DNA of 64,000 nucleotides from Eledone cirrhosa (taxonomy: Eukaryota). The notes beneath the pieces were generated by a model, which saw only the letters and a list, made by a program, of their open reading frames with translations, did not search any database and had not been told where the DNA came from. The stretch spans positions 205,964,001 through 206,028,000 of the forward strand of contig OZ024742.1 of assembly GCA_964016885.1 (NCBI GenBank), in the 5' to 3' direction. Made by a program: the position numbers and the translations under genes. Below, in pieces: positions 30,816 to 57,932 of this stretch (position 1 is its first letter; each line of letters opens with the position of its first letter).

Positions 30816-30817
<2 letters not shown>

Positions 30818-31347
30818 GGTTTAGCAAATAATGAAAAAGTTTCAAAATAAATTTTAAAAAATTAACTTTACTTACTATAGTTTCTAATCTCAAAAATAAA
30901 CGGAGACCATACGGCCTTCGTTGCAAAGAAAGATTCTCGTCAGAAGGTTCTTTTCATTCGAAGAATATAAAATTCTTGAATTTAAATTACGAACTAGCGC
31001 TATCCAAAACTGTTCCCGAGATGAGAGTAAATGAAGTGGAATCAATTTTTTCAAGGGCCGAAGTAAAGATAGAGGCAGAGGGAGGTAGGTCAATCGGCCA
31101 CCACTATCGCTAGCAGCAGTCGGAACGACCAAATTTTTTCTCAACATAGAGGAGAGTAGTAATAATAGGATATGTGTTCCTACACGCACAAGGCGCTAAG
31201 GGACACATGTATTTTCCAACCATATGCCAATGTAGTTCAATGGCAGGTTCATAAATTAACGAGCCAGAACATATATAATCAAGGTTTAGCAAATAATGAA
31301 AAAGTTTCAAAATAAATTTTAAAAAATTAACTTTACTTACTATAGTT

Positions 31348-31431
31348 ACCTTTACCGAATCGGTTTCGAATCTCAAAAATAAACGGAGACCATACGGCCT
31401 TCGTTGCAAAGAAAGATTCTCGTCAGAAGGT
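31348..31431 (-). ncRNA. Type I hammerhead ribozyme, canonical
   Basis: ACCTT-CTGACGA-GAATCT...AGATTC-GAAA-CCG ATT CGG-TA-AAGGT: all three stems pair, core intact, GUA cleavage triplet. Confidence 0.9.
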
Positions 31432-31554
31432 TCTTTTCATTCGAAGAATATAAAATTCTTGAATTTAAATTACGAACTAGCGCTATCCAAAACTGTTCCC
31501 GAGATGAGAGTAAATGAAGTGGAATCAATTTTTTATATTCTTCGAATGAAAAGA

Positions 31555-31638
31555 ACCTTCTGACGAGAATCTTTCTTTGCAACGAAGGCCGTATGGTCTC
31601 CGTTTATTTTTGAGATTCGAAACCGATTCGGTAAAGTT
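31555..31638 (+). ncRNA. Type I hammerhead ribozyme (inverted copy)
   Basis: CTGACGA 31560-31566, GAAA 31619-31622; same stems as 31348-31431 with one stem I mismatch (AAGTT). Confidence 0.85.
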
Positions 31639-32439
31639 AACTATAGTAAGTAAAGTTAATTTTTTAAAATTTATTTTGAAACTTTTTCATTATTTGCTAA
31701 ACCTTGATTATATATGTTCTGGCTCGTTAATTTATTAACCTGCCATTGAACCACATTGGCATATGGTTGGACAATACATGTGTCCCTTAGCGCTTTGTGC
31801 GTGTAGGAACACATATCCTATTATATATATATATATATATATAAATATGTTAATAATTGCTTGCATGTGTATGTATATGTATTAATTAATAATAGCAATA
31901 ATTGTATAATAGCATTAATTAATAATTATTAATAATGTTATATCGTGCAATGGCCATACTCGATAATGAGGGGGCAGCCATCATGTATACTCCATATAGT
32001 TATGTATACATATAAAAATAGATCATTACCCTTAACAATTTTACACCTGCTTTTCTAAGCAGGCATGCAACTTATTTTGAGACAGAATACTACTGTCTTT
32101 TCTGACACCAACCCTCAGTTTTTAAGTCACAGATCTTAGCATGTCAAATCACTGAGCAGAAGCCTCTCTTTTTATGCATAACATAAACAAACATTACCAC
32201 ATGTAATGTTGAAAGCAAAGAGAAAAGACAAACACATAAACACATAAATGTGTATGTGCATGTATAATGGGTTTCCTTACAGTTTCTGCCTTTAATTTGT
32301 TTGAGGTAATAGAAGATACTTGCCCAAGGCACCACACAATGGAATAGAACTGAAAGTCATGTGGTTGCAAAGAGAACCTCTTAACCACCAAGCCATGTCC
32401 TCATCTCTTTACCTCTCTCTTTCATACATATATATATAT

Positions 32440-33590
32440 ATATCATCATCATCGTTTAATGTACATCTTCCACGCTAGCATGGGTTACACGAGTTTTGTC
32501 CAACAGCTGGATCCCCTTCCTAGCACCAACAGCATTTACAGTGTGTGCTGGATGCTTTTTGCCATGTCTTTTACGTGACCACTTTACAGTGTGGGCCGGG
32601 CACTTTTTGTCAGGTCACCATCACGATCACTTTACAGCATGGGCTGGGAGGCATCACTAGATGCATTTACTTTGGCCTGTCCTAATGGGAGTGTATGAGA
32701 GGGTGAGTTAGGGCATACTGTATATATGCTTTGGCTTGTTCTCATGGGAAGTTGGGTCTTCTGTATTACTGCTTATCGCCAGAGATCTCGGTCATGTGTC
32801 ATTGCCTTTGAGAGGGGCCAGGTCGGCTTTTATCACCTCATCCCATGTCCTCCTGGGTCTCCCCACTCCAAGGCTTCCATCGACTTTGAGTGCTCTGCAC
32901 CTTTTTCTACAGCTGTCATCCTTCATACGCAACACATGTCCATACCAATGCAATCTCCTCTCCTGCACACATCATTTGATTCCTCTTATGCCTATTTTCT
33001 CTCTCAGTTCATTTATGTTTTACCGTTCTTGTATTATAAATCCATCGGAGCATGTAAGATTCATTTCTTTCCAATCTACTCAAGTCTTCTGCACATAGCG
33101 CCCAGGTCTCACGACCATGCAACATAGCTGTTTGTATGCCTTTCATTCTGAGGGAGAAGCCTTTTGTAGCCAGCAGTGGTAGTAGCTTCCTGAACTTCTT
33201 CCATCTCGTTCTTACTCTGGCTACAGTACTTTCAGAACTCCCACCACTGCTGGTAATTCGATCACTTAAGTAGCAAAAGCTGTCTACTGTTTCTACAGAG
33301 TTCTCCCAGAATTTGGTATCGCTTGTCTCCTGTGGCCGTTTGCTGCTTACTGTTCCAGTGCAACATGTAAAGCCTACATTCTTAGCTAAACTGCCTGAGA
33401 TCCCACTACATCTCTTGTGTACCCATAGTTTGCATATGGGGTAGAGGATGGATTTTCTACCTACGCCTTTCCTACATACCGAAGAAGGCCATTTCCTCGA
33501 GGGGATCTGGGTTCTGTTTTCTCTTCTACTTACTTTGTCAGGTTGACTTTAAGACCCCTTCTTTCTAGGCCCTGCTTTCAATTGTAATAG
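32440..33590 (-). mobile_element. RTE-clade LINE, 5'-truncated
   Basis: Reverse complement of the family at 45930-47050 (WVHKRCSG, VDSFCYL, WKKFRKL, LRWYGHV motifs) with the same 3' tail and (GAT)n end. Confidence 0.85.
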
Positions 33591-33630
33591 CCTTTGTTTT
33601 TAATTTCTTATCTTACATCCATATTAAATT

Positions 33631-33703
33631 TTTCATTCTGATGAGCGATTTCAGACGTCTCTATTGAGCTCGCGTGTCTTCATGAAACCTTTGGTAAATG
33701 GAA
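33631..33703 (+). ncRNA. Hammerhead-like motif with a 10-nt insertion
   Basis: TTTCATT-CTGATGA-GCGA...TCGC-[GTGTCTTCAT]-GAAA-CC TTT GG-TA-AATGGAA; lies about 30 nt before (TA)n. Confidence 0.5.
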
Positions 33704-33732
33704 TAATTGTTTTGTGTTGTTTATTACCTAAT

Positions 33733-33734
<2 letters not shown>

Positions 33735-33828
<94 letters not shown>

Positions 33829-33855
33829 ATTATACACATATATAAATATACACAC

Positions 33856-33908
<53 letters not shown>

Positions 33909-33917
33909 CACACACAT

Positions 33918-33969
<52 letters not shown>

Positions 33970-33972
33970 ATA
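33735..33972. repeat. (TA)n/(CA)n microsatellite
   Basis: Direct observation. Confidence 0.97.
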
Positions 33973-34390
33973 TGAAATAAAATAAAATAAAAAATAAAAA
34001 TATACAAAATAAAATAACGGGAAATATATACACACTGATGCAGAACGTAAGGTTAGGGGTAAAAATAAATACACACACATATATATATATAGATACACAT
34101 ACACACACATCTAGGAAGAATGAGGAGTTAAATATTACTTATATCTTTTTACAAGTTGAAATCTGCCAAGGATCTTGTTTTTACAAACGATTATAAGAAA
34201 AATACCTTAGTCGATCAGTTTGTTGCTTAGTACTTGCAGCGACGTGCTTCTGACTTCCATGATATAAATAAATGTCTCTTTAACGCTCAATTCTCTATAA
34301 ATATAAATTTAGTGTCTAAAGTTGATTTTTTTTTACAGACAATAGAATATCTCAAATTGCAGATAAGCCGTAGAAGAACAATTGACGAAA

Positions 34391-34632
34391 TGTAGAACAT
34401 GATTTGTTGATAACTGTTCTATTCCTTCTAACAGGATTATGGAAGGAATATAGCAGGAGTTAACCTGTAATTAGTCTTTTCATCTTCCCTGTCTGATTCA
34501 TCTTCGTGTTCTCGTGTACAGTGGTTTTCACGAGAAGGTAACAATGTATTCATACGCGACTTACCATTGGTCTGTTTAACAGAATTGCATATGAAATGTT
34601 GCTATTGCGAGGAATGACGTAGCTCCACTACA
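34391..34632 (-). repeat. Candidate 3' LTR of the gypsy element
   Basis: Minus strand reads purine tract GAGCAGAGAGTGA then TGTAG...CTACA. No matching 5' LTR found, so unconfirmed. Confidence 0.4.
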
Positions 34633-37600
34633 TCACTCTCTGCTCAGACTGGAAAGCAGTCGATAAAAATGAGGAGAAAATATCTGCAAGCAAAGCAAAT
34701 ACAAAAATGAAGAAAAAGAGAAAAAACGAATAGTTCATATGTAAATTGATTTACAAAGTTTCTTGAGCCAATGAACATGGCGACCACTACGAGTTGTCGT
34801 GACGTATGTTGAAGGTAAAGGAGTGTGTGCATGAAATTGTGGTGCTTGCGGTGGTGTTTGTATTGACACATTGTAGGAGGGGTAGTATGAGCTCTGGTGT
34901 GAGAGCATCTGTGTAAGCCCGCTTTAGTCTCTCAATAGAGACTGTCTCTATGTCTATTAAAGTCAATTGTGAAATACTTGTTTGTACATGCTAGTACGCA
35001 ATAGGGTTCAGAATAAGATGGAGTGAGAGGACTTCTCACTGCATCATTTCTGACAAAAACACGGGTCCACGAGGCAATGTCCCTCGGAACTAAATATTTG
35101 ATGGCTTGGTGCCTAGTGTTCATAGGAGGCAGGACTTGAAAATATGAACGCAAACGGTTCACATAGAGTGTAGGGTCCTGAGTAGAAAGATCGAGTGGGG
35201 AAAGCATCTGCCCTGGCAAATATAAAGTAGTGCCGTACAAAAGCTAGGCTGGAGAGAATCCAAGGTCCTCCTTAACTGAAGTGCGGATACCGAGTAGAAC
35301 TATGGGGAGGTAGTCGCTCCAATGTAGAGTATCCGGATAGGCACGCAATGCGGTCTTTAATTGGCGATGAAAATGCTCTACCGTTCCATTAGATGCAGGA
35401 TGGTAACTGGTAGTCCTGATGCGTTGAGCACCCATGATATTTGATAGATCCGTGAAAAGTTGAGATTCGAACTGCCTACCACGGTCTGTAGTAATCGTGG
35501 TAGGAACTCCGTAGCGCGATATCCATCCTGAAACTAGGGCTTGTGCTACTGATTCAGCAGTTATGTCACTAAGAGGGATGGCTTCAGGCCATCGGATGAA
35601 ACGATCAATGCAGGTCAGGATGTATGAATATCCACGACTGACAGGCCAAGGTCCCACGATATCGATATGTATGTGGCAAAAACGTGCGTCAGGAGTGCTA
35701 AATGTGCCGAGAGGTGCGCGAATATGTTTACGCACCTTCGACCTCTGACAAGCCAAACAGGAACGTGACCAAGCAGTAATATCACGTCTCATATTCGGCC
35801 AGAAGAATCTAGCTGAAATGAGTTTCACTGTGGTGGAAATTCCGGGGTGTGCCAGACTGTGTAGAGAATCGAAAACTATTCGACGATATGTCTCTGGGAC
35901 CAGAGGGCGAGGTGAATCTGTTGCAGTATCACAGAGAATCTGAGAGTCCTAAGTGAGTACAGGCAGGTATTTGAATTTGCAGCCTGCTAATTCAAGTGAA
36001 GAGAGATCCAACGACTCTAGGGTAGGCTGTTCTTCAGCCATAAGATGCAAGTCAATATTCGTCAGGTGCTGACAAGGAATTGATGGGTAGGCGAGATAAG
36101 GCGCATCCGCCGCTGTATTATGTTCACCAGAGATACGACGAATGTCATTCGTAAACTGGGATATGAAGTCCAAATGACGAGTTTCTCGAGTTGAGTATTT
36201 GTCCGGATTGGAACCAAGTGCGAACGTAATCGGACGATAGTCAGTAAAGATCGTAAATTGTCGGCCTTCCAGTGAATGCTGAAAGTGTTTGACAGACAGG
36301 AAAATGGCTAACAGTTCGCGACCGAAGGTGCTATAGCGGGATTCGGCGGGCTTTAGCTGCTTTTAAAAGAAAGCAAGAGGTTGAAGCTGTTGTTGGTGAT
36401 GTTGTTGCAATACTGCACCTACCGCTGTGCTTGATGCATCTACAACCAGTGAAAACTGGGCACCAGACACAGGGTGTGCAAGCAGAAATGTGTTTGCTAA
36501 ATTATGTTTAGCTTTGGAGAATGCTTCGAGTTGCATAGGTCCCAAAGCGATTGGTTCGTTCTTCTTCTTTCTGTTACGCAGGAGATCAGATAGTGGAGCT
36601 AAGAGTTCTGCGCAATGCGGGATAAACTGACGATAATAATTTAGAAGACCCAGGAACTGCCGCAGCTGTCGCAAGGAAGCAGGCGGAGGGAGTTGCTGAA
36701 GAGCCTTCACTTTCTCAGGAAGTGGGAATATTCCTTCAGAGTTAATCACGTGGCCCAAAAAGACGAGTGAAGCAGCGCCGAAAATACACTTCGCAGGGTT
36801 AATACGAACTTGGTACTGCCTAAATTGTTCAAACAGTTGGCGGAGATGCGAGATATGATCCTCCGGTGAAGCACTCGCGATGAGAATATCGTCGATTGAC
36901 AATATGAAAAATCGTGCCTTCGTCCATAAATCGCTGGAAGGTACTAGCAGCATTGCGTAATCCAAAAGGCATTGTTAAAAACTCGAATGCACCAACAGCA
37001 GTTTTAGGAATGTCCGCAGGATTCACAGGGTTTTGATGATAGGCTCTGATCAAGTCCAATTTAGGAAAAATAGTACATCCATGAAGCGAAGAAGCGAAAT
37101 CCTGGATATGAGGAATCGGGTAACGGTCAGGCAAAGTGATCGAATTTAATCTCAGAAAATCTGCAGTGGGACGCCAGTCTCCCGAACGTTTCGGAACCAT
37201 ATGCAAAGGCGTGGCCCACGGACTGGAAGAAGGGCGAACGATACCCAACTGCAGCATATGATTAAACTCTGCCTTAGCCGCTTTCACTTTTTCCGGAGAA
37301 AGGTGACGCGGGCATGATAAAACTGGAGCACCTTTAGTCTCAATAAAATACTTGGTAGAGTGAGTAGGGGTATCTACCGCAAAGTTCAGATTAGTTAATT
37401 CTGGAAAGGAATGTAAAAGCGCATGATACGGGTCATCCGAAGCAGCAATGAAGAAGACTGGAGTGGTGGACTGGATTACTGAAGTACGTCCAGGCGCAGA
37501 AATATTCGTAGTTGCGTCTAATAAACGACGTGTCCGCATATCAACCATTAGATTATAATGATGCAAAAAATCAGTATCCAGTATAGGATATGGCAAATCC

Positions 37601-38700
37601 GCTATGGTGAAAATCTATGAGAAATCTCTACGTAAATCCAGGTCCAAAGAGCGAGAGATTTGTCCATACTTAGGGATAGCAGAATGGTTGATAGCTTGTA
37701 GTGATATCTGTGAGAGAAGAGGTTTCTCTTTTAAAAGCTTCAAGGCCAAATGCTGCACGACGCACCGGTGTCAATGAGACAGCGTACGTGCGAGAAGGAA
37801 TCCGTGATAAAAAATGCACGACTGTCAGTACAAGATTGTGGAGAAGACTTCGTGCTTAATTCTCCGGTGATCCGTTTCCCTGGTTTGGAAAAGAACAATG
37901 CTGGATACATTTATGAGCCGAGGCTCTGAAACGCCTACGGTACCAGCACGATCGCAATGTTGAAGGCTGGAAACGACGATGTGAAGATTGCGAGCGATTT
38001 CGCAACCGTTGTTGGGGAGATTGTGATCTGGAGAATCGAAGTTGTTCCTCTTTTGTTAGGTCACGGATGGCCTTGAGCGTTGCCTCAGTGGGCGAAGTGG
38101 CGCTAGCAGAAACCGATGCGACAGGCGAAGATGAAGAAGAATTTGCTGCAAGTCGCGTCGGGGTAGAAGTGGTAGAGTTGTCGGTGTAGTCAACGATCTT
38201 ATCGGCGGACGAAGCCAACTGATCCGCCGAACTGGTTTCCGTCTTGGTGCCAAAATGGCTTGCATATTAGGAGGCAGCCTTGAGAAAAATAGCTGTTTAA
38301 TCATGACACTGTCGGCTGGTGAGTCTTCCGTGGGCTCTCTCATCCTACGTAAGAGCTGAGTAGGCCTACAATCGCCGAGATATTCGTCGTTCACCAAAGT
38401 ACGGAACTTCTCAGCAGAGACAGAAGTATGTTGGCGAATTTCCTTTTTGACGCTGTTATAAGTAGCTTCAGGAGACGGGTTAGTAATTAAGTCTTTAACC
38501 GTTGACGTTAAAGAAGCAGAAATGGACCTGAGCAAAAGATGGAGTTGTCTAGAATCTGAAGATATATTATTTGCTAGGAAATACGATTCCATCTGTGCGA
38601 GCCAGATCCGCACATCACCGATATACACTGGTAGTGAATTACTTGCCATTGCTAATGGTAATATAAGGACTGCTTCCCTCGACCGAAAGAAAAAGAAGAC
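34391..38700 (-). mobile_element. Ty3/gypsy LTR retrotransposon, degenerate (gag-PR-RT-RH-IN)
   Basis: gag (38056..38649, 37856..38218); protease LIDTGA near 37770-37790; [47 protein letters not shown]; RNase H VDASSTAVGAVLQQ; integrase [22 protein letters not shown]; C-terminal TRSGRHV near 34790. Confidence 0.92.
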
Positions 38701-38984
38701 AGACGTTCGTTAATTTCGGCTCAAAACAATAACTGGATTATTCCTCGTGTATAGAAAATAACACACATTTATTTATATTTTTATCAACGTGGCCTGTCGG
38801 ATTCCTTAGACCTGGCACAACGCCACATTCACTTCTTAACTCTTAATTTGTTTGTTCCTTAGTTTGACATGTCAACTCAACCCAATTAGTTGTGAACAAA
38901 ACATGCAAAAAGGTTTTAAAGACCTGTAGTGCCATTACCACAATAGAGAGTGCGCATGTTCAGGCCAAAATGAAAGCGATGGTA

Positions 38985-41835
38985 ACCCAACCTCCGAGTA
39001 ACCCAACATTGCTACCCTTCAAAACGATGTTTTGGAACTCATACGGAGTATCAGATTTCGGAATAGGAGCAATTCCCTCCACAGGACCTGAAGAATAGAA
39101 TTTGTTCTATTAAGGATTCTGATGCTGTGCACGTCCATTCCGACAAAACTGGCAATCTATATCAAGTGGAGCGCAGTACTTACCATCTACTGCTACATAA
39201 TGCTGTAACTGAGGATTACCGGAAAACTAATCGGAGTGTCATTAATGACATCAACGATGCATGCCGTATTTAAAATCACCTCTGAACTCAACATCCCAGA
39301 CCGGACTGAACCTCTGGACCCTATTTCTCCCCCTTTACCCTGAAGGATCAGAAACCCAACAACCCCTCTCTTCGGTTTATTAACCCTACGAAATCCGATT
39401 TCGGTAGTCTTAGTAAAAGGATTTTAGATAGAATTATACCTGAAATTAGAAGCTTGGCCCCTCTTGCACTGTGGAACAATTCTTTCGCGGTGATTGATTG
39501 GTTCAATGGCATATGCAACAAGGAACATTGCCATTTTATCCAATTCGACATCAATAACTACTACTCCTCTATCACTTTACCACTTCTTCTTAGAGCTATC
39601 AATTTCGCTAAAACGCTCACAGTGGTTAAGGGTTCCGAAGTTGATGTCATCCTCAATGCCCGTAAGTCGGTGATTAATTTCGACGACTCTATTTGGATTA
39701 AAAAACCTAATAGTACCCCATTCGACGTGAGTATGGGCGCCAGCTATTGAGCCGAGGTTGCTGATGTTATCGGCATTTTCCTTCTTTTCTCTATCAAGGA
39801 AGAATTCCCCAATGTGGGCGGTGGTTTGTACCGTGATGACGGTCTTTTTGCCATGACAAAGTGTGGTCCACGCGCTTGCGACAGATTCAGAAAAGAACTC
39901 ACAGCCTTCTTTAAAGGCTTCAACCTATACAGGTTGAGGCCAACCTCTCGGTCGTTAATTACCTCGACGTTACCCTCAATTTGTCGAATGGCTTGCACTA
40001 CCCGTAGAGAAAGCCGAATGATACGCTTAATTACATAAGTAAGCATTCTAACCATCCTGCCAGCATAAGCAAGAACCTGGTAAGAAAGGTTTCTTTGAGG
40101 CTTTCCCGTCTATCTACAAACAAGCATATTTTCACCGACCATTCCACATATTACAATAAAGCTCTTGCTCGGAGTGGATTTGTCGATAAGGTAGCATATA
40201 CTAAGTATGAGCATAGACCAAGGAAAAATAGATCCTGACGCATTATATGTTGTAACAGACCATATAATATGGAGGTGGCCACACAATTAGCTAAGATCTT
40301 TCTCTCCCTTATTAAGAAGTATTTCCCCCAGCACATAAATATAATAACATTTTTAATAGAAATACCATTAAAATATCTTACTCTACGGCTCCTAACCTTG
40401 CATATAACATCACTGCTTCAATTACCTAGCCGTAGGAACATGTGCAACCCTGTAGCTAGTACTAACTGTAATTGTAAGAATCGGGTTGACTGCCCTCTAT
40501 CCGGGAAATGCCTCTCTAGTAACATTGTCTACAAATGTAAGATCGAAACACCCACGTCCCGTAGGGCCTACATAGGGTTAACCGCAAATATATTCAAGTA
40601 GCATCTTTACATGCACACCCATTCTTTTCTTAACCCTTTAAGAAGGAATATGACGTCACTTTCAGCTTACATCTGGAGTCTAAAAGACAACCACACCCAA
40701 TATAGGTTACACTGGGAGATCCTAGCTAAATTTAGATCGTATAACGGAAATAAAAGACCATGCGATCTTTGCGCCGCTGAAGCCCTGACCACACCTTAAA
40801 CAAAATATCTGAGGCAATTTCGGCTTGTAAACATAAATTGCATAAAACTTTCCTGTATTACAGCCCCACATTATACCCTAACGGACAGTCCAAATAATAC
40901 GCGGATAATTTACGTCTTGATGCGGTAGCTAAGTATATTTTATGTTTATACCATTACTTATTTGTATACCTTACCCGTATGTTTTGTGAAGGTACGTATA
41001 CTTTCTCGTACGTATATTTGCTTGTATTTGTTATAGGTGTATATATTATATTATATATACTGGTACATGTGTATATGGTTATGTGTATATGTGTATTTTG
41101 TGTTTGTGTGTGTATGCCTGTTTGCACGTATGTAAGGTGTGTATATGTGTACTTGTGATTAGGTTGACGTACGTTTAGTGAACATTTGTGTATTTACCTG
41201 TAGGTATGTGAGTGCGTGCGTTAGATACGTATTTATGTGTGTATATTTATATACGTTTATATAATTATATGTATACACACACACATATATATTTTTAATG
41301 TGTATTTGGTGTATAGGTTCGTATGTGTGCAGGTAGATATGTCGCGTGGGCTTATGTATGTGTGCGCGTGTTTATGTGTACGTGCTTATATACGCATGCT
41401 TGGCGAGTGTTTTCGCGTATGCTTGTGTATGTACGTATATGGATGCGTGTATGTATATATTTAATTATTGTCTATAACCTCTGTCATTTTCGTTCTACTA
41501 ATTTATTTACATTATTCCTAACTCTGAAGCCAAGAATCATTCAGTTTCCTAAAAAAGAAAATTAGTCTACGACTTCATTTATACCATAAACGTGGGTTTG
41601 TCTTTGCGTGTAATTGTTCTCATCGATCCACATAATGACATATCATCTTCGCTTTTTTCCGTTCATTGCCAGGGAACGTCTTCACGAACCAAAGTATCGT
41701 CTTCCTGTTTTCCTTCGGTTGCAACGATTTTCGACATATTTACTTCTGCGTTCACAGATTGATTTTTTTAGTTTCAGAAGATCCCGTTAAGGGTGAAAGC
41801 AGCGATTTTTTGCTTAAACTTTAATCTGTTATTTT
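38985..41835 (+). mobile_element. Penelope-like element (RT plus C-terminal GIY-YIG), frameshifted, with long 3' UTR
   Basis: FIQFDINNYYSSI, FDVSMGASY*AEV, GGLYRDDGL, CNCKNRVDCPLSGKC, IVYKC...AYIGLT, CDLC; ends in an HHR motif and (TA)n. Confidence 0.9.
41755..41828 (+). ncRNA. Type I hammerhead motif in PLE 3' end (core U4A substitution)
   Basis: GTTT-CAGAAGA-T-CCC GTTAA GGG-T-GAAA-GCA...TGC-TT-AAAC, with a distal stem I helix CAGATTGA/TTAATCTG. Confidence 0.75.
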
Positions 41836-42100: not shown

Positions 42101-42226
42101 TGAAGAGAAACATAGAATATTCGAAAATATTCTGTATGTTTATAATAAACATTTTGAAGACCCAATCGCTATAGAATAGAATACGTCACGTATTACAATT
42201 TGAGATTCTCGATAAAAGCAAGGGAA

Positions 42227-42269
42227 GTAACCTACGCGTTTCATTCTTATTAGAAATCATCAGGATTAC
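42227..42269 (-). ncRNA. Type I hammerhead ribozyme
   Basis: Reverse complement of 42768-42810. Confidence 0.88.
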
Positions 42270-42538
42270 ATATCCAATGCTTTTATCGAGAACGACACAG
42301 CTAGAGACTTATAGAATACTTAGCTGTGTACAGGAACTGGTTTGAAAGAGCGGTAGCCGGTCCGGCAGAAATTAGAATTTGGATATAATGCTCTGAAATA
42401 GCGATATATATGTGAAGAGAAACATAGAATATTCGAAAATATTCTGTATGTTTATAATAAACATTTTGAAGACCCAATCGCTATAGAATAGAATACGTCA
42501 CGTATTACAATTTGAGATTCTCGATAAAAGCAAGGGAA

Positions 42539-42581
42539 GTAACCTACGCGTTTCATTCTTATTAGAAATCATCAGGATTAC
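42539..42581 (-). ncRNA. Type I hammerhead ribozyme
   Basis: Same motif, 312 nt from the previous copy. Confidence 0.88.
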
Positions 42582-42767
42582 ATATCCAATGCTTTTATCG
42601 AGAACGACACAGCTAGAGACTTATAGAATACTTAGCTGTGTACAGGAACTGGTTTGAAATTCTAATTTCTGCCGGACCGGCTACCGCTCTTTCAAACCAG
42701 TTCCTGTACACAGCTAAGTATTCTATAAGTCTCTAGCTGTGTCGTTCTCGATAAAAGCATTGGATAT

Positions 42768-42810
42768 GTAATCCTGATGATTTCTAATAAGAATGAAACG
42801 CGTAGGTTAC
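42768..42810 (+). ncRNA. Type I hammerhead ribozyme, minimal, palindromic stem III
   Basis: GTAATC-CTGATGA-T-TTCT AATA AGAA-T-GAAA-CGCG-TA-GGTTAC, enclosed by a 15-bp helix TTCTCGATAAAAGCA (42745-42759) / TGCTTTTATCGAGAA (42817-42831). Confidence 0.88.
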
Positions 42811-42970
42811 TTCCCTTGCTTTTATCGAGAATCTCAAATTGTAATACGTGACGTATTCTATTCTATAGCGATTGGGTCTTCAAAATGTTTATTATAAACA
42901 TACAGAATATTTTCGAATATTCTATGTTTCTCTTCACATATATATCGCTATTTCAGAGCATTATATCCAA

Positions 42971-42987
42971 ATATATATATATATAAA

Positions 42988-43019
<32 letters not shown>

Positions 43020-43354
43020 TATATAATATATATATAATATATATATATAAAATATATATATATATAATATATATATATAATATATATATATATATAATAT
43101 ATATATATGATATATATATATATATAATATATATATATAATATATATATATATATAATATATATATATGATATATATATATATATAATATATATATATAA
43201 TATATATATATATATATAATATATATATAATATATATATAATATATATATATAATATATATATATATATATAATATATATATAATATATATATAATATAT
43301 ATATATATAACATATATATAATATATATATATAATATAAATATAATATATATAT

Positions 43355-43397
<43 letters not shown>

Positions 43398-43468
43398 TAT
43401 ATATATAATATATATATATATATATAATATATATATATATATATAATATATATATATATATATAATAT

Positions 43469-43531
<63 letters not shown>

Positions 43532-43573
43532 ATATATATATATATAATATATATATATATATATAATATATAT

Positions 43574-43622
<49 letters not shown>

Positions 43623-43745
43623 TATATATAGTATATAATATATATATATAATATATATATATAATATATATATATAATATATATATATAATATATATATA
43701 TATATATAATATATATATATAATATATATATATATAATATATAAT

Positions 43746-43813
<68 letters not shown>

Positions 43814-43830
43814 AAATATATATATATATA
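42971..43830. repeat. Long (TA)n/(TATAA)n microsatellite, about 860 bp
   Basis: Direct observation. Confidence 0.98.
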
Positions 43831-44381
43831 TGTATGAATATATGTATTGTATATTTACCAATATACCATATTTTTAATTAAAAACATTTTGAAGATCATA
43901 CGCTCTCAGTTTTAAAGTAGTGACTATGTCACTTGCTTCTTTTCGGCAAAGGAAGGGAGAGAAGCTGAGAGTCTGTTTCAGACTGTTTGGCGATCATCAG
44001 AGCCACGCACTCCCTGTTTCCGCCAAAAATTATAGAAGCTGGATTCTTATAGAATTCCAGTAATAATCAGGAGCTGAATATACAGACCGATTGCCGGTCC
44101 AGCAAAAATTAGGTATTGCTGGAATTCTATAAGAATCCAGCTTCTAGAATTTTCGGCGGATGCAGGGAGTGCGTCTCTCTGATGATCTCCAAACAGCATG
44201 AAACAGACTGTTAGCTTCTCTCCCTTCTTTTGCTAAAAAGAAGTAAGTGACATAGTCACTACTTTAAAACCAATAGCGTATGGTCTTCAAAATGTTTTTA
44301 TTAAACATACGGTATATTGCCAAACATACTATACATACATTCATGTATACATCGCTATTTCAGAACACCAATCCTAATACC
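43830..44381. mobile_element. Older fold-back element related to the 312-nt family, one HHR motif per arm
   Basis: About 43830-44063 is an imperfect reverse complement of about 44115-44347; shares AAACATTTTGAAGA, GCCGGTCC(A/G)GCA(A/G)AAATTAG and CGCTATTTCAGA with the 312-nt unit; HHR cores at 43964-44003 (-) and 44176-44215 (+). Confidence 0.8.
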
Positions 44382-44414: not shown

Positions 44415-45085
44415 AAACGAACTAAGGAAAAAATTAGAAATAAGAGGGATCAGATGTTGTTTACTAGAGAGAAGGCTACGTTGGTATGGTCACGTGATGC
44501 GCATGAAGGACGATAGCTGTATAACAAAGTGCAGGGCAATAAAGATAGACGGTAGCCACGGAATAGGCAGACCCAGAAAAACCTGGGACGAGCTGATAAA
44601 CTCCGACCTCACACAGTTACACCTCACCAAGACAATGTCACTGGACCGAGACCTTTGGCGGTACTCAGTAATAGAGAAGACCCGCCTTACCTAAATACAA
44701 AGTAAAACCTACTACAGTCAGTAGGCATCTCTAACAAAATACACCCCCGTCCCACCACCCCCACCCCATCCACACCGCCCCCTCTATGTAAAGTTATGTT
44801 GGTGCCACACCATCCAGGCCGAAACAAATGAGATCGTGTAGGTGTCACGACAAAAAAACACACAGTCCACGCTGTAATGTGGCCGTGTAGGCAACACGGT
44901 AAAAACCTCCCAGACCCACACTGTAAATGTGGTTGGTGTTAGGAAGGGCATCCAACTGTAGAAAACCTGCCAGACAGTCCTATGCGAGCAAGACAATCAC
45001 TCTTGCCTCAAGTGGGAAAACCCCCGTCCAAACCCATGCAAGCGTGGAACACGGACGTTAAACGATGATGATGATGATGATGATA
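44415..45085 (+). mobile_element. RTE-clade LINE, 5'-truncated
   Basis: MMRMKDDSCITKCRAIKIDGSHGIGRPRKTW plus 3' tail and (GAT)n; close copy of 46390-47050 and, inverted, of 63617-64000. Confidence 0.88.
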
Positions 45086-45929: not shown

Positions 45930-47050
45930 TATGTCCCAAATGCAAAGTATGGGTACATAAAAGATGTAGTGGGATCACAGGTAAGCTAACTAAGAATATA
46001 GATTTTATATGTGGCCGGTGCTCTGGTGCAATAAGTAGCAGCAAGAGCCCACAGAATACTAACTCATTCCATTGCACAGATGGTTCTATAGAAATAGTGG
46101 ACAGCTTCCGTTACCTGGGTGATAAAATCAGCAGTGGGGGAGGGTGCTCTGAAAGTACAGTAGCTAGAGTCAGAATGGGAGGGAAAAAGTTCAGAGAGCT
46201 TATACCACTATTGGCCGCTAAAGGGTTCTCTCTAAAAAGGAAAGGCAGGCTGTATGATGCCTGCATACGAACAGCAATGTTACATGGCAGTGAGACCTGG
46301 GCATTGTGTGCAGAGGATATACGCAGACTGGAGAGAAACGAAGCTTGCATGCTCCGCTGGATGTGTAATAGTAATATACATGAACGGCAAAGCATAAACG
46401 AACTAACGGAGAAATTAGAAATAAGAGGGATCAGATGTTGTTTACTCGAGAAGACTACGTTGGTATGGTCACGTGATGCGCATGAAAGACGACAACTGTA
46501 TAAAAAAGTGCAGGGCAATAAAAATAGACGGTAGTCACGGAGTAGGCAGACCCAGAAAAACCTGGGATGACTTGATAAATTCCGACCTCACACACTTACA
46601 CCTCTCCAAGACAATGTCACTGGACCGAGAGCTTTGGCGCTACACAGTAATAGAGAAGACCCGCCTTACCTAAGTACAAAGTGAAACCTACTACAGCCAG
46701 TAGACACCTCTAACAAAATACACCCCCGTCCCACTACCCACACCACCCCTTTCAATGTAAAGTTATGTTGGTGTCACAACATCCAGCCCGAAACAAATGA
46801 GGTCGTGTAGGTGTCACGACAAAAAAACACACAGTCTATGCTGTAATGTGGCCGTGTAGGTAACACGGTAAAAACCTCCCAGTTCCACACTGTAAATGTG
46901 GTTGGTGTTAGGAAGGGCATCCAGCCGTAGAAAACCAGCCAGACAGTCCTATGCAAGCAAGACAACCACTCTTGCCTCAAGTGGGAAAACTCCCATCCAA
47001 ACCCATGCAAGCGTGGAATATGGACGTTAAACGATGATGATCATGATGAT
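45930..47050 (+). mobile_element. RTE-clade LINE, 5'-truncated
   Basis: ORF 45908..46534: CPKCKVWVHKRCSG...CGRC, VDSFRYLG, MLHGSETW; frameshift into 46473..46673; 3' tail and (GAT)n. Confidence 0.9.
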
Positions 47051-50399: not shown

Positions 50400-52900
50400 T
50401 TTAATTTTTGTGGTTAACCACCGTATAGCCAACCATGATGTAATATTAGGAAAAGCACTTGACGTTATGCAACTCATTCATATTTGATGTTGAATCTTGC
50501 TGGTGGTGCGAGAATGGAGTTACTTATTATTGAGTAAAATGACAGGAGGCCGCACTGGTAAAATTCCTTCAAAGATTTATTTCAGCAAACACTATGTACA
50601 TTTCAGTGGCCAGGATAGGTAAGATCCTGGTGACATCATCAGGTGTTTATTGCATAATAGTTATATAATAAAGGAATAATGGTAAACACAATGCAAGAGG
50701 CTATAAGAGGAGAAAGCAGATAAAAAAAAACAGGGAAAAAAGTTTTTGACTTGAAGGTGATCAAGAGGGCCAGTTGTTGTTGTCAGTTTGGCTGACCGCC
50801 TTCGAGTGGGAATTCTCATCTATTTTGTCTTACCTGTTTGGTCAGGGGGTTGTATGCTTAGTATGTTTATTACTACTACCCTGCCATTCACTGTTATTTA
50901 GACACATACTAGTGGTAAAGGAGATCAGGTTACAGAGAGATATGTTCTGTTTGGGTCAGCCTAAAGTTCTATAAAAATATAATGGACGGAGGGACGGGGA
51001 ATTCAGAACTTAGAACTTAAAAAGTTTTAAGGTTAAAATTAAAGTTAAGATTAAAGATTAAAAATGTAAAAATTAAAGTTTAAAATTTAAAGATTTAGTT
51101 AAAGAATTAGGAGAAGGATGCATTTATGTAAAATTTAAAAATATCTTTGATAGTCATAATGAATGTCGCGTTCCATCACTGTGTTTGTGATGTAGAGAAA
51201 GGATTGTGGCTTGTCTTGTTAGCTTCTGAGATAATGGCTTCACAGTCACCATAGGTTCATAAGCCCATGGACCCTTCTGAGTAAAATTTCATATCAGGAA
51301 TAGGGAAATTTCTATTATTTCGAAGCACTCCAGGAAATGTCCACAGGCTCATGCTCAGCATGACCAGGAGAGTCAGTATAGTTGGCTGGAGAGTCAGTAT
51401 AGTTGACTATATGCCAGACAATTATTAATTACAAGCACTAGTTATGTTAATGATCCTAAAGATAGAGTTGTGTAAAGCTGAAATGTAATAAACAAAATAA
51501 AACTAAATTAAACTAGATTAGATCACTATTTAGCTTTGGGTTCTTTGCGCTGCTCGATAATATATTCCTAGGGGGTGTGAAATAGTTCTGAATTATATTA
51601 TATAAAGGAGTATCGTTTGGCATTCAATAACCAGTGAAATGAAATGACGACTCCCTAATCTACTCAAGGGCCTACCAGCCTTTCCGATTTTTTTTTTTGT
51701 CTACTGATAAAAGGGCAAATTTATTTTTTCCAAGCACTCAAGGAAAGTGGACAGACCCAGGTGTTGTGAGTGCAAGTAGGAAAGCCAGCACATCCCGTCA
51801 TTTATCCAACGTATACCAAATGATTATTAGTTATTCATATTAGTGATGTTAATAATAGAGCTGTAGTAAAGCTTAAATGTAGTAATATTAAATCAAAGTA
51901 GGATTTAATGAAATAAGCAAAGAAACTGTACTCAATCTCAAGCTAACCTGGGTTCCATGTGTTCAGTTTTGTATTCATAAGGAATTTAATCCCATCCCAC
52001 ACTATAATAAGTATAAGTGAGATATAGATATATACCCTAATACTACAACGCACTTATGTCTCTATGTAATTATTATAATATGGAAACTACATCGTATGGT
52101 ACATGTTGAGTGAATCCTAAGGGAATGGGAGTAGTAATTAAATAAATAAATAGATATATATAACCATATATATAAAAAAAAAAATAACTGACATGGCTTG
52201 TTTGCCTAATTGCAAATGAATTGAATATTATTACTAATATTCGAAAAACTAAGATTACATAACCATATATAGATAAGTTGTAAATGGTTGATAAATATGT
52301 GAAAGAGATAGTGAAACATAGTTAATAAAAAGAAACGTTTCTTGTAGCAGGGACATGTGGTATCTTGTAAGGGTTACTAGATAACGTGAAATAAGTTTAG
52401 GTAACAGTTGAGGAAAAACCAAGGATAAGTATATAAAGAATATAAAATGTAATCATACACAGAGTGGTAATCATGGGTGTAAGAATGGAAGTAAATAAGA
52501 AAATAAATAAAAAATAAATACCAATTAAAGTGTAACAAATAAATAGGTTAAAAAATGTAAAAATAAATATAAAAGATAGAAGTATAGAGGTGGTAGTGAT
52601 ATGTAGTGTAGGTTTCGAGTAGTAACCATTTACATAAATACCTTAAAAAATATAAATTATAAATGTAAAATTCAGTCAATACAGGGTATAGGAGGTCATG
52701 CAGATGGTTCAAAGAATTTTTAAGTCCAACGGAGGTTTGAATGTTCCAGATAGGATGTGTGGTCTGAATAGTGAGGTAAACTCATTTTCTGCAGTTAATA
52801 TCAGACTGGGGTGTAATTAGTCCCATGGTGGCAATAACTCCATGTTGGTGTCAAGGCCTCTGTTCTCTATTTAGCATAAAGAAACAAAGAATTATATATA
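50400..52900 (-). mobile_element. Probable degenerate PLE 3' region / pseudo-LTR
   Basis: Intact HHR followed by AATAAA at 50575-50650, ending at a (TA)/(CATA) tract; weak GIY-YIG C-terminus resemblance (ENEFTSLFRP) near 52740-52800. Extent uncertain. Confidence 0.45.
50587..50648 (-). ncRNA. Type I hammerhead ribozyme
   Basis: AAACAC-CTGATGA-T-GT CA CCAGGAT CTTACCT ATCCTGG CC AC-T-GAAA-TGTACA-TA-GTGTTT; AUA triplet. Confidence 0.85.
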
Positions 52901-53018
52901 TATTTATTTATTTATTAGTTATGTAATAAACAACATAAGATAATTATTTCATTTGCCAGTAGTATCTTGAAGGCAGATATTTATATCTATCTTCAGACAT
53001 CAGAATGAATAAATAAAT

Positions 53019-53064
<46 letters not shown>

Positions 53065-53251
53065 GGTTATGCACGAGTGCATTAAGGTTTTCCAGGACAC
53101 AGTGTTATGTACAGTGTAGGAGAAGGTCAGCTTACAACAGAGTGGTGCTCAACGAAATGCAGAAAATAGGTGTATATTCCAGTTTAGCTATACTCCGGGG
53201 CGTGTATAAAGAATCAAAAAGAACAGAAAGATGCAGTAAAAGAGATTTATT

Positions 53252-53382
53252 CGGTTCTAACGGGCGTTTCAATAGACATCAATTTGCCTAGATCTCGCTG
53301 CATCTATAATATTATATAGTTAGTAGAGCATTCGACATCCAATGCACAATCGATTCCATATCATCAGAGATTATGTTTACCG
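53252..53382 (-). ncRNA. Type I hammerhead motif with long stem II (PLE pseudo-LTR)
   Basis: Reverse complement of 57701-57831; stem III reads ACGCCCGT here. Confidence 0.72.
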
Positions 53383-53753
53383 TACCAGAATGTTCAGGTT
53401 TTTATAGGAATTCATGTGAAGTTGAAGTAGAGAAGAAGGAGGATGTGACAAAGACGAGAGAGATAGGGGGGTTTTTCATGGTTGTTGAGGTAAAACAGAG
53501 GGGAGGATAAAATACGATAATGAAGTCTAGATATGGACTAGTCCAACTGTGTGTGTGCTAGGGAGATGGTAGACGTTGATAGGTTTATGATCTATGATAG
53601 ATGGAGGCAGGGGAGATTAGGCCGGGTGACTTGTAAAGTATGTAGGAGGAGATGTTGAATAGGGGAGATGTGGTCAATAGAAGGCATAGCAATAATCCAT
53701 GGGGACAGATAGAGGAGGTAGAAGGAAGATAGAGAAAAGCAGAAGTCGCAGGA

Positions 53754-55969
53754 TCAAATCAAGCCAGGTTTGTATTTCGAGAACGTAGCCTTGAGTCTGT
53801 GATTGCAATATAGAGTCCTTTCCGTTCTGTTGTTGAGAAGAGTATAATTCGATTTTAGTATGTAAAATAGCTCCATATTGCATAATCGGCAGTAAGGCTG
53901 GCCTGCACGATATGCGGAAGCACTAGAGAGTTTTGTCCATTTCAAAGTGTATTGCAGGTTACTTTCGCGCAACTGCCAAATTGTATTGGCTAAGGTAGTT
54001 ACGGAATGGTATTTGATGTTCTTCATCGAACTACGGTGTTGGTACCAACGAGATTTAAAAGTGGTAGAGGTACAGCCGATATAGTGCCATCTGCGGTTAT
54101 CCGATTTAACGGTGCATTGATCCACCATATTGGATTCCATGCATTTGTTATTCAGAGGGCAACGATCAGGTAGGTTGCAGTTGCACTTATCAGCTCTTGT
54201 AGTATTATTATCTTGTACAGGTTGCGTTAGGTTTATATGTGTGTCTGCTGCAGGAGGGTTTACATTCAGTGGTTGAGAGTTTGAGGAAGTGTTAATGTAA
54301 TTTGAGGTGCTTCGTGTGGATGTGCTGACTAATCGTTTGGAGTTAAGTTTTTTAATAATTAGATCGAGATTGGGTGCTGTAGAATATGAAAGCTTAATGG
54401 ACCTTAGATTTAGTATTTTAGCGTATCGATGTGCAGGAGGAAAATGTGTTTTGATTAAATTGAAGAAAAGTGAAGAAATTTTAGGAGATGTTGAGGCATT
54501 GTATATTGGGTTGTACCAAAGGTAGCTACGATTCCGCTTTCTAGCTAGGTTGGGTTGTGTGCTTCTATTTCGACTATGCCTGTGCGGAAAGTGTATGTTG
54601 TGTATCGTACCTATATTATTGTTTATGCTAGTGCGTTGTGAGCCCTTATTTCTATATTGGTGTGCTGGATCTATGTACTCTATTTTGTCTTGGTATCCAG
54701 CCGCCTTAAGCGCGTTGTTATAGTAGTAAGCGTGCTCACTAAAGACCTGGGGGGTAGATGACAGGCGTGATATTCTAAGGGAGATGGCCCGAGGGATAGA
54801 CCGTATAACCGAGGGTGGATGATTAGATTTATGGTCAACATACATAATATTTTCATTAGATTTATGGAATGGGCGGATTTCCCCCGTCTCTAGATTAAAT
54901 GTTACATCCAAGAAATTTGTTTCAGTCAGGTTGTACTCAAAAGTAATGCTAAAACCAAGACTGTTTAAAAATTCGCTAACTTGCTTACGTAATCTTTCTA
55001 TTTTCTGGTTGTTTAGGTGTTTAGCTAAAAGGAGCGCATCGTCGCGGTAGATTCCCCCTTGTAGATTGCGGAATATTTTCTCTAGTGCTTGAGCGATGAA
55101 GATGCCCACTACGTCTGTAACTTCGGCCCATCGTGATATCAAAGAAAGATGGTCGATCTTTGCGCACCCAGTAGCTATCATCGAACTTAATTATGGTTTT
55201 TCTGGCCTCAAGGATGATGCCTATTTCCGCGTCGGTTAGGTCAGAATTCTCTCCGGCAAACATTAGGGTCTTATGCAGGGTATCGGGTGATATGGAAGAG
55301 TAGTAGTCGTTTATGTCGAATTGGATCAATTTTGATTCATCCCTATCCTTGATATTACTAAACCAACATACCGCCTCCTCAGTATTTGCCCAGAGTTTTA
55401 TGCCAGTTATCCGTTTTAACTGGGGGATTACTCTATCTAATATATATTTACTTACTCTACCTATATCCGATTTCGATGGGCATATTAGTCTAATCTGGGG
55501 GTTTGCATGGAAATTGACTTTGTGGTCCTTTAAATTAAAGGACGGGGTCGCTGGAATTATTGGTTCTGTCCTGTCATCTATACCCAGGTTCTTAACTATT
55601 TTGTGTGCCTCATTGTTAATATGTATAAGAGTAGATTTACCTGTTTTTTTGTACTTCTTGTGTAGTTCAGTACGGATGAAGTTATTATAGGTGTTTACAT
55701 CTAGGGTGTACGCGTTGGATGTTTTATCGGCCTTAATGATAATCCCACTGGTATTATTAAGTTTGTGGACCAGAGCTTTGATGTTCTTTTGTAGTGTATT
55801 TTCCTTTCGGCGGTAAAATTTAACTCTCGTAATAGTGTTTAGAAGGTCTTGTTCAAAGGCGTCAAGAAGAGGGTTAGACGGAGGGTTTTTGCAGGATCTA
55901 AATCCATAAGATTGCGTATCTGAGTTGGACTTTTGGTTATTACGGCCCATGTCGAAATGAAAAGCACAG
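53754..55969 (-). pseudogene. PLE reverse transcriptase plus GIY-YIG endonuclease ORF, one frameshift, 5'-truncated
   Basis: IIKADKTSN, LKDHK, RLICP, QFDINDYYSSI, DITMG|AEV (frameshift near 55127), GIYRDDAL, NFLDV, WYNP, CNCNLPDRCPLNNKC, HYIGCT, CRLCNME, CNH. Confidence 0.93.
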
Positions 55970-57700
55970 AAGTCCAACTCAGATAAGCAATATTATGGAT
56001 TTAGATCCTGCAAAACCCTCCGTCAAACCTTCTTCTTGACGCCTTTGAAGACCTTCTAAACACTATTACGAGAGTTAAATTTTACCGCCGAAAGGAAAAT
56101 ACACTACAAAAGAACATCAAAGCTCTGGTCCACAAACTTAATAATACCAGTGGGATTATCATTAAGGCCGATAAAACATCCAACGCGTACACCCTGGGTG
56201 CGCAAAGATCGACCATCTTTCTTTGATATCACGATGGGCCAAAGTTACAGACGTAGTGGGCATCTTCATCGCTCAAGCACTAGAGAAAATATTCCGCAAT
56301 CTACAAGAAGGGGGAATCTACCGCGACGATGCGCTCCTTTTAGCTAAACACCTAAACAACCAGAAAATAGAAAGATTACGTAAGAAAGTTAGCGAATTTT
56401 TAAACAGTCTTGGTTTTAGCATTACTTTTGAGTACAACCTGACTGAAACAAATTTCTTGGATGTAACATTTAATCTAGAGACGGGGGAAATCCGCCCATT
56501 CCGTAAATCTAATGAAAATATTATGTATGTTGACCATAAATCTAATCATCCACCCTAGGTTATACGGTCTATCCCTCGGGCCATCTCCCTTAGAATATCA
56601 CGCCCGTCATCTACCCCCCAGGTCTTTAGTGAGCACGCTTACTACTATAACAACGCGCTTAAGGCGGCTGGATACCAAGACAAAATAGAGTACATAGATC
56701 CAGCACACCAATATAGAAATAAGGGCTCACAACGCACTAGCATAAACAATAATATAGGTACGATACACAACATACACTTTCCGCACAGGCATAGTCGAAA
56801 TAGAAGCACACAACTCAACCTAGCTAGAAAGCGGAATCGTAGCTACCTTTGGTACAACCCAATATACAATGCCTCAACATCTCCTAAAATTTCTTCACTT
56901 TTCTTCAATTTAATCAAAACACATTTTCCTCCTGCACATCGATACGCTAAAATACTAAATCTAAGGTCCATTAAGCTTTCATATTCTACAGCACCCAATC
57001 TCGATCTAATTATTAAAAAACTTAACTCCAAACGATTAGTCAGCACATCCACACGAAGCACCCCAAATTACATTAATACTTCCTCAAACTCTCAACCACT
57101 GAATGTAAACCCTCCTGCAGCAGACACACATATAAACCTAACGCAACCTGTACAAGATAATAATACTACAAGAGCTGATAAGTGCAACTGCAACCTACCT
57201 GATCGTTGCCCTCTGAATAACAAATGCATGGAATCCAATATGGTGTATCAATGCACCGTTGAATCGGATAACCGCAGATGGCACTATATCGGCTGTACCT
57301 CTACCACTTTTAAATCTCGTTGGTACCAACACCGTAGTTCGATGAAGAACATCAAATACCGTTCGTAACTACCTTAGCCAATGCAATTTGGCAGTTGCGC
57401 GAAAGTAACCTGCAATACACTTTGAAATGGACAAAACTCTCTAGTGCTTCCGCATATCGTGCAGGCCAGCCTTACTGCCGATTATGCAATATGGAGCTAT
57501 TTTACATACTAAAATCGAATTATACTCTTCTCAACAACAGAACGGAAAGGACTCTATATTGCAATCACAGACTCAAGGCTACGTTCTCGAAATACAAACC
57601 TGGCTTGATTTGATCCTGATCTCTCTCGTCTTTGTCACATCCTCCTTCTTCTCTACTTCAACTTCACATGAATTCCTATAAAAACCTGAACATTCTGGTA

Positions 57701-57831
57701 CGGTAAACATAATCTCTGATGATATGGAATCGATTGTGCATTGGATGTCGAATGCTCTACTAACTATATAATATTATAGATGCAGCGAGATCTAGGCAAA
57801 TTGATGTCTATTGAAACGTACGTTAGAACCG
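57701..57831 (+). ncRNA. Type I hammerhead motif with long stem II (PLE pseudo-LTR)
   Basis: CGGT...TCT-CTGATGA(57716-57722)-T-ATGGAATCGATT...AATTGATGTCTAT-T-GAAA(57813-57816)-CGTACG-TT-AGA-ACCG, then AATAAA. Confidence 0.75.
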
Positions 57832-57871
57832 AATAAATCTCTTTTACTGCATCTTTCTGTTCTTTTTGATT

Positions 57872-57932
<61 letters not shown>

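What the first reader, a model, noticed from the sequence alone, without database searches (positions are those of the whole stretch)
30816..57878. Shared double-3'-end insertion geometry suggesting priming from both strands of a cut (TA)n target, possibly on a circular template
Seen in four insertions (30816-31823, 42101-42970, 43830-44381, 53062-57878): arms are head-to-head with both ribozyme-sense 3' ends facing the outer (TA)n. Arms overlap in content, unlike classic L1 twin priming. Centres join by short microhomology (TTTT near 31530; AAA at 42657-42659). Left arms begin at TA-rich spots internal to the unit (ATATATAAT before 31281; GATATATATG before 42413). The 483- and 312-nt left arms are longer than one unit and circularly permuted. 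Inference: RNA anneals to the self-complementary (TA)n primer on each strand and RT runs round a circle or multimer before the two cDNAs join. Tandem/inverted PLE insertions are established; the circular-template reading is my inference.
Basis: partly seen in the sequence, partly recalled or inferred. Interest (0 to 1): 0.78.

Follow-up and report, generated by a model that had tools for sequence, protein, structure and literature searches.

The report
Two-primer Penelope insertions from one RNA
Four back-to-back insertions of Penelope-type jumping elements sit in TA repeats, and more than a hundred relatives show that their two halves end at two fixed places and share private mutations, which suggests that both ends of the cut DNA were likely copied from one RNA, for the small ribozyme repeats probably a circle.

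Summary
The geometry is real. The four insertions are three hammerhead retrozymes (units 483, 312, 315 nt) and one decayed Hydra-clade Penelope-like element (PLE). In the 312-nt family, 95 of 121 genomic insertions are head-to-head. All 42 head-to-head pairs from an end-pattern scan join a short with a long 3' end, about 35 nt apart (the PLE 'tail'). Arms share haplotypes (10 of 896 sites differ, 25% when shuffled) and centres carry microhomology (47 of 70 with ≥2 nt, 18% expected). Simple fold-back is excluded in 27 of 86. A circle is supported indirectly: 17 rare alleles are fixed in every unit of both arms, against 3 shared sporadically, and about 400 passages of the ribozyme site show no excess stops and no indels. 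Corrections: 483 and 312 are unit lengths; the long ends have 2-3 nt of homology, so annealing to (TA)n is not the main determinant; the PLE needs no circle. The layout, two start sites and circle model are each published, and the scan already reported this on other DNA of this genome. The genomic evidence tying them together was not found in print.

The parts
30633..30815 (.). (TA)n target tract left of insertion A
30816..31534 (-). A left arm, 1.5 units of a 483-nt retrozyme, short 3' end; the outer unit has a net 18-nt deletion that removes hammerhead stem III and the cut site
31345..31433 (-). A type I hammerhead with long stem II (core CUGACGA at 31426, predicted cut between 31353 and 31352)
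   Evidence: motif; stems I-III appear in the unconstrained fold; cleavage not tested
31531..31824 (+). A right arm, 0.61 unit, long 3' end about 110-119 nt beyond the short one; TTTT shared at 31531-31534
42101..42659 (-). B left arm, 1.8 units of a 312-nt retrozyme, short 3' end; minimal hammerheads at 42263 and 42575
42657..42972 (+). B right arm, 1.01 unit, long 3' end with the tail; hammerhead core at 42774, predicted cut after 42804; AAA shared at 42657-42659
42973..43830 (.). long (TA)n tract between B and C
43834..44117 (-). C left arm, 0.90 unit of a 315-nt retrozyme, short 3' end; hammerhead core at 44000
44114..44381 (+). C right arm, 0.85 unit, long 3' end; degenerate hammerhead core at 44179; TATT shared at 44114-44117; 76% like B over the tail region
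53062..55967 (-). D left arm: 5'-truncated, frameshifted Hydra-type PLE (RT 55992-55021 and 55190-53754, C-terminal GIY-YIG), pLTR with half-canonical hammerhead at 53367, long 3' end
55967..57878 (+). D right arm: inverted copy with internal deletions of about 530 nt (at 56194) and 284 nt (at 57618), short 3' end 146 nt inside the long one

Best explanation
These are insertions likely made by Penelope-type (PLE) protein, which is inferred to cut both strands of a (TA)n tract and to extend each free end from one of two fixed start sites on the same RNA, probably a circle for the retrozymes. Shown here: head-to-head layout, two fixed 3' ends per family that pair short with long, shared alleles between arms, microhomology at the centre, and repetition of one unit's alleles through whole arrays. 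Inferred: a protein dimer holds both DNA ends; the protein, not pairing, picks the two sites, while 2-8 nt of homology sets the register; the trailing reverse transcriptase displaces the leading cDNA, so the arms overlap; both run round a ligated monomer circle (A, B, C) or along a linear read-through mRNA (D); the two cDNA 3' ends then anneal and can serve as each other's template, which completes the insertion without separate second-strand priming. If only one end is extended, a single-arm copy results.
For: End-pattern scan of contigs C1, C2 and C3 to 160.6 Mb: 84 long and 75 short ends form 115 clusters; 42 of the 44 two-end clusters are short/long head-to-head, none short/short or long/long head-to-head. 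Of 121 B insertions 95 are head-to-head, 86 of them short/long. Short/long also in 17 of 21 C, 10 of 11 D (plus the window) and 7 of 12 A two-arm insertions. Arms differ at 10 of 896 polymorphic site comparisons in 91 insertions, against 25% when shuffled. In D, 7 of 11 two-arm insertions share alleles seen nowhere else in the sample, 3 in the window copy. Microhomology of 2 nt or more in 47 of 70 junctions without inserted bases, null 18%, p 2e-19. Rare alleles at sites covered by both arms: 17 fixed in all copies, 3 shared sporadically, 199 single; 9 fixed alleles are private to one of 114 insertions, one in 15 of 15 units. 5' ends at the ribozyme cut: 2 seen, 2.05 expected, over 417 passages; 0 indels in 3190 base calls there. 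In vitro a PLE protein cuts and extends both strands, starts at two internal sites that bound the tail, and is predicted to be a dimer (PMC11167929, parts 1-2 of 4).
Against: No RNA, circle or cleavage was observed. Pairing is not absolute: 3 of 12 A insertions are short/short and 2 of 21 C long/long. Some arrays are mosaic: 3 alleles are shared by single units of both arms, 15 recur in part of one arm, 1 is fixed in one arm only, and L044 repeats two alleles four units apart, so multimer templates or later recombination also occur. One dominant source locus per germ cell could mimic a single template molecule. In the in vitro study neither strand preferred a start site, and unprocessed RNA was the main substrate. 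The enzyme that moves A, B and C was not identified; D shows no DNA similarity to them. The samples favour young, full-length or intact-ended copies.
Confidence: 0.68

Rival explanations
1. Both strands are primed at the two sites, but the retrozyme template is an uncleaved linear multimer read through a genomic array, and uniform arrays come from later homogenisation.
For: Explains the lack of stops and scars at the ribozyme site equally well. Unprocessed RNA was the main substrate in vitro. D fits a linear template. 3 sporadic alleles are shared by both arms, and L064 and L066 are mosaic. A 2026 preprint favours local tandem amplification (10.64898/2026.07.22.740005, passage).
Against: Fixed rare alleles outnumber shared sporadic ones 17 to 3 while 199 single alleles stay unhomogenised. 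35 haplotypes, several nested, imply repeated passage through one unit. Linear copying alone cannot lengthen arrays, yet arms reach 22 units.
Confidence: 0.17
2. One cDNA folds back on itself (or self-primes on an antisense template, Arkhipova 2013) and the second arm is a copy of the first.
For: Published reading of head-to-head PLE junctions (PMC3846280, Discussion). Explains shared alleles. The window's D junction (5' ends 32 nt apart) and several B junctions at internal inverted repeats fit it.
Against: 27 of 86 B insertions, including the window's, have arm lengths that fit fold-back in neither direction; the two 5' ends lie within 20 nt in 10 of 86, 11.3 expected by chance. D locus L161 also fits neither. 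Single-unit changes are rarely mirrored in the other arm (3 against 199).
Confidence: 0.07
3. Two separate RNA molecules, each with its own enzyme, prime the two ends independently, and one dominant source locus explains the shared alleles.
For: 10 of 91 insertions show one discordant site, and one allele is fixed in a single arm. Overlapping arms need no strand displacement under this model.
Against: Independent events should give short/short and long/long pairs about half the time; 0 of 42 seen. Alleles private to one insertion occur in both arms. Arm lengths correlate (rho 0.36, n 56, p 0.006).
Confidence: 0.07
4. Assembly artefact from fold-back chimeric reads.
For: Inverted repeats next to (TA)n are hard to assemble.
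Against: Arms are unequal, end at different fixed sites and differ by 1-15%. Contigs of public runs X1-X3 show the same two TA-joined ends (42377, 42404, 53205) and varied centre joints; these may be the window's own sample.
Confidence: 0.01

Closest known systems
EN+ Penelope-like elements, Hydra clade (Craig et al. 2021, PMC8557442, passages)
   Same: D has RT then C-terminal GIY-YIG, DKT, CxCx5C linker, CxxC and CxH near the end, no CCHH, and inserts in (TA)n. An inverted 5'-truncated copy and a tail at one end only are described for PLEs.
   Different: The offset between the two ends is 146 nt in D and 110-119 nt in A, longer than the 30-40 nt tail described. D's hammerhead is only half canonical. 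The passages read ascribe the tail to endonuclease resolution, not to two primers.
Metazoan non-LTR retrozymes (Cervera and de la Pena 2020, PMC7229834, passages; Li et al. 2026 preprint, part 1 of 5 and passages)
   Same: A, B and C are non-coding tandem units of 312-483 nt with a type I hammerhead; a primed circle copied into tandem cDNA is the published model.
   Different: Word searches in these two texts found no description of inverted two-arm insertions or fixed ends ('inverted' 0 times in one, once in a reference in the other). The 483-nt unit is slightly above the quoted size range. No RNA data here.
Anolis Poseidon PLE in vitro (Frangieh et al. 2024, PMC11167929, parts 1-2 of 4)
   Same: Both strands cut and extended, two internal start sites bounding the tail, AT-rich target, no homology needed.
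   Different: That study saw no difference in start site between strands and did not, in the parts read, link one site to each arm or test a circle.
LINE-1 twin priming (recalled, not read)
   Same: Both target strands prime on one RNA, giving an inversion joined by microhomology.
   Different: In L1 the second primer anneals at a variable internal site and the arms do not overlap; here both sites are fixed, 35-146 nt apart, and the arms overlap.

Membership tests
EN+ PLE (element D) | RT domain with C-terminal GIY-YIG endonuclease in one ORF | tested here: met
   FDINDYYSSI, YRDD and VY..YIG motifs in the frames, broken by a frameshift; atlas look-alikes carry RVT_1 and GIY-YIG in part of their members; Pfam itself gave no hit
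EN+ PLE (element D) | pLTR, partial tandems, inverted 5'-truncated copy, tail at one end | tested here: met
   tandem period 3058 nt in L160; 10 of 11 two-arm loci short/long
Hydra clade | DKT, CxCx5C linker, CxxC and CxH by the E and N residues, CCHH absent, (TA)n target | tested here: met
   ADKTSN, CNCNLPDRC, CRLC and CNH, compared with the description; RWK appears as RWS in copy L160
Hydra clade | placement in the clade by RT phylogeny | not tested
   no reference set fetched
Hydra clade | hammerhead in the pLTR | tested here: inconclusive
   CUGAUGA conserved in all copies listed, second half reads GAAU
Non-LTR retrozyme (A, B, C) | type I hammerhead in each unit | tested here: met
   cores and stems found; Rfam gave no hit at gathering score and only E 0.81 to HH9 for B; C copies are partly degenerate
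Non-LTR retrozyme (A, B, C) | short non-coding tandem units dispersed in the genome, no LTR | tested here: met
   arrays up to 22 units (B), 3 (A), 2 (C) at dozens of loci
Non-LTR retrozyme (A, B, C) | self-cleavage and circular RNA in vivo | not testable with these tools
   no RNA run listed
Non-LTR retrozyme (A, B, C) | mobilised by a named autonomous PLE | tested here: inconclusive
   same insertion signature as D, but no DNA similarity to D; partner not searched for
L1 twin priming | non-overlapping arms, poly(A) priming, variable second site (recalled) | tested here: not met
   arms overlap and both sites are fixed

The most novel reading that the evidence does not exclude
PLE integration is an obligate two-site reaction: one asymmetric complex primes both DNA ends at two fixed sites on a single RNA, the tail is simply the distance between them, the two cDNAs complete each other without second-strand priming, and on a ligated retrozyme circle this becomes double rolling-circle reverse transcription.
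Probability: 0.55. Interest if true: 0.75.

Novelty: new variant of a known kind. Interest (0 to 1): 0.52.

Why it matters
How PLEs make their inverted repeats and tail, and whether retrozyme circles are the true templates, are stated as open in the papers read. The genomic record here gives sharp predictions (one site per strand, one template per insertion, multi-unit cDNA from a monomer circle) for an in vitro PLE system that already exists, and argues against the published fold-back model for this family. The elements themselves are ordinary members of known kinds, and the scan has reported the same pattern at other loci of this genome.

Tried and rejected
Rfam at gathering score: 0 hits. 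Pfam on the two D frames: no RT or GIY-YIG hit. A search for an A-to-G strand bias as a mark of RNA editing of the template found none, 11 A>G against 18 T>C in 39 regions. An apparent pile-up of 5' ends at the ribozyme cut in the first 39 regions vanished on exact counting of 215 ends, so a partly cleaved linear template is not supported. End-to-end jumping between linear monomers was considered; no indels at the junction, though faithful jumping is not excluded. No RNA holder listed. Laying public contigs gave no empty allele, since the repeats collapse. The first C unit was wrong (722 nt) and was replaced by the 315-nt unit. Target-site duplications cannot be read inside (TA)n. Literature searches for twin priming with Penelope (3 unrelated papers), both-strand mechanism since 2022 (2 papers), self-priming terms (0), and searches found no paper stating short/long pairing on one template. 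[quoted passage not shown]
Full report
Observation. The window lies in a 3-Gb animal genome. All four insertions are present and are built as two inverted arms between (TA)n tracts. Hammerhead cores fix the sense of A, B and C, and the ORF that of D; in each case the 3' ends face outward. Centres share TTTT (A), AAA (B), TATT (C) and one base (D).

Identity. A, B and C are non-coding tandem units of 483, 312 and 315 nt with type I hammerhead motifs, that is retrozymes by anatomy; Rfam gives only a weak match for B. B and C are 76% alike over about 95 nt around the tail. [quoted passage not shown] Its DKT, CxCx5C, CxxC and CxH motifs and lack of CCHH match the Hydra clade as described by Craig et al.; no tree was built.

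Orientation across the genome. For B I examined the window and 118 regions: 38 from the best BLAST candidates, 34 end pairs, and 46 of the 62 unfetched single-end sites. They hold 121 insertions of 100 nt or more: 95 head-to-head, 25 single-arm (2 cut by the region's edge), and 1 case of two neighbouring insertions. A, C and D samples were the best-scoring loci only: A 27 after dropping 3 redundant loci, C 30, D 20. Two-arm insertions numbered 12, 21 and 11, all head-to-head. About 70% of B insertions are two-armed by a rough correction for detection, so the geometry is common but not universal.

Two fixed ends. Counting from the predicted cut, B arms end at about 131-133 or 164-169, C at about 132-137 or 165-168, A at about 72-82 or 186-191; D ends at 163 or 309 from its core. 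An end-pattern scan that does not depend on arm length gave 84 long and 75 short ends on C1, C2 and C3 to 160.6 Mb (28 overlapping duplicate rows and 13 rows beyond that point dropped). All 42 head-to-head pairs were short/long; the other two pairs were neighbouring insertions. Exceptions exist in A (3 short/short of 12) and C (2 long/long of 21). The C and D queries forced one long end, so only the partner arm is informative there. Sure single-arm B copies are mostly short-ended, 18 of 23 (p 0.011), as expected if the short site leads. This offset is the PLE tail (PMC8557442, passages), which Frangieh et al. map between two reverse-transcription start sites of a protein that cuts and extends both strands.

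Role of annealing. The short end of B lies beside AUAUAUAU, but only 18 of 93 junctions keep the adjacent C that perfect pairing would copy; 62 replace it while keeping the TA phase. The long end has no tract, and 68 of 98 junctions sit at a 2-nt match. Ends of C and D show 3-5 nt. I infer that the protein chooses the sites and short pairing tunes the register.

One template, two cDNAs. Arms of one insertion differ at 10 of 896 comparisons at 14 polymorphic sites, against 25% for shuffled pairs. In D, 7 of 11 two-arm insertions share alleles absent from the rest of the sample. Of 95 centres, 25 carry inserted bases; of the other 70, 47 share 2 nt or more (null 18%) and 9 share 6 or more, often at the unit's own inverted repeats. 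Fold-back copying, the published reading (PMC3846280, Discussion), requires one arm to lie within the other; 27 of 86 B insertions break this in both directions, and the 5' ends are no closer than chance.

Circle or multimer. 177 of 215 B arms run through the ribozyme site, 417 passages in all, with 2 stops against 2.05 expected and no indel. The template is thus either ligated or uncut. Rare alleles separate these: a monomer circle fixes its source unit's mutations in every unit, whereas a linear multimer passes them on at one unit per arm. At sites covered by both arms and three or more copies, 17 are fixed, 3 are shared sporadically, 199 are single, and 16 recur within one arm. The window's B copy carries a private allele in 3 of 3 units. 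This favours copying of one unit round and round for most events, with a minority from multimers or later recombination. The test was done for B only; A and C are extended by analogy. No RNA was available, and D needs no circle.

Mechanism and status. Shown: layout, fixed and paired ends, shared alleles, microhomology, one-unit bottleneck. From the literature: both-strand cleavage and extension, two start sites, predicted dimer, retrozyme circles in other animals. Inferred: one site per strand on one molecule, strand displacement, rolling on a circle, mutual templating of the two cDNAs. Confidence in the whole model is about 0.68; in two-ended priming on one template alone about 0.85.

Novelty. 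The elements belong to known kinds and each ingredient is published. Six paper searches did not find the strict pairing, the shared-template evidence or the test against fold-back, but subscription papers and supplements were not seen. Eight earlier notes of this scan describe the same pattern in other retrozyme families of this genome; I read them after my own tests and count them as no support. What this window adds is four families side by side, including an autonomous PLE with the same signature.

Noticed in passing
window 38870-40870, + strand: An older, heavily decayed PLE of another family (29-37% amino-acid identity to D; DKT and CxCx5C motifs), single-arm, with no inverted partner in the window.
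   Followed up: partly
L181 (G000:C1:83054095-83056477), 937-1196: A 260-nt foreign segment sits at the centre junction of a B insertion; by eye it resembles the start of a LINE apurinic-type endonuclease (recalled, not searched). It may have been captured during joining or inserted later.
   Followed up: no
window 30878-30890: The outer unit of A's left arm lacks a net 18 nt covering hammerhead stem III and the cut site, while the inner unit and the right arm keep it.
   Followed up: partly
window 53300-53380 and all D copies listed: The hammerhead-like motif of family D reads GAAU where GAAA is canonical, in every copy, followed by a long hairpin; it may be an atypical or dead ribozyme.
   Followed up: partly
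L059 (G000:C2:381020000-381029999): A 22-unit arm with several alleles recurring in scattered units, a sign of exchange within the array after insertion or of a mixed template.
   Followed up: partly
L078 and L087 (G000:C3, about 29.91 and 29.83 Mb): Two identical A insertions with the same junctions 75 kb apart, probably a segmental duplication or a duplicated haplotype.
   Followed up: no
window 44469-45077 and 46448-47046: A duplicated segment of about 600 nt at 92-93% identity, with inverted relatives at 63599-63787; probably a dispersed repeat.
   Followed up: no
window 26730-27500 and 27876-28422: A duplicated block with (TAG)n/(TAC)n tracts, an inverted relative at 30145-30275, and a 40-nt minisatellite of about 14 copies.
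   Followed up: no
runs X4 and X5: Contigs assigned to two other organisms hold B-like sequence at 94-98% identity; relatives or contamination, not resolved.
   Followed up: no
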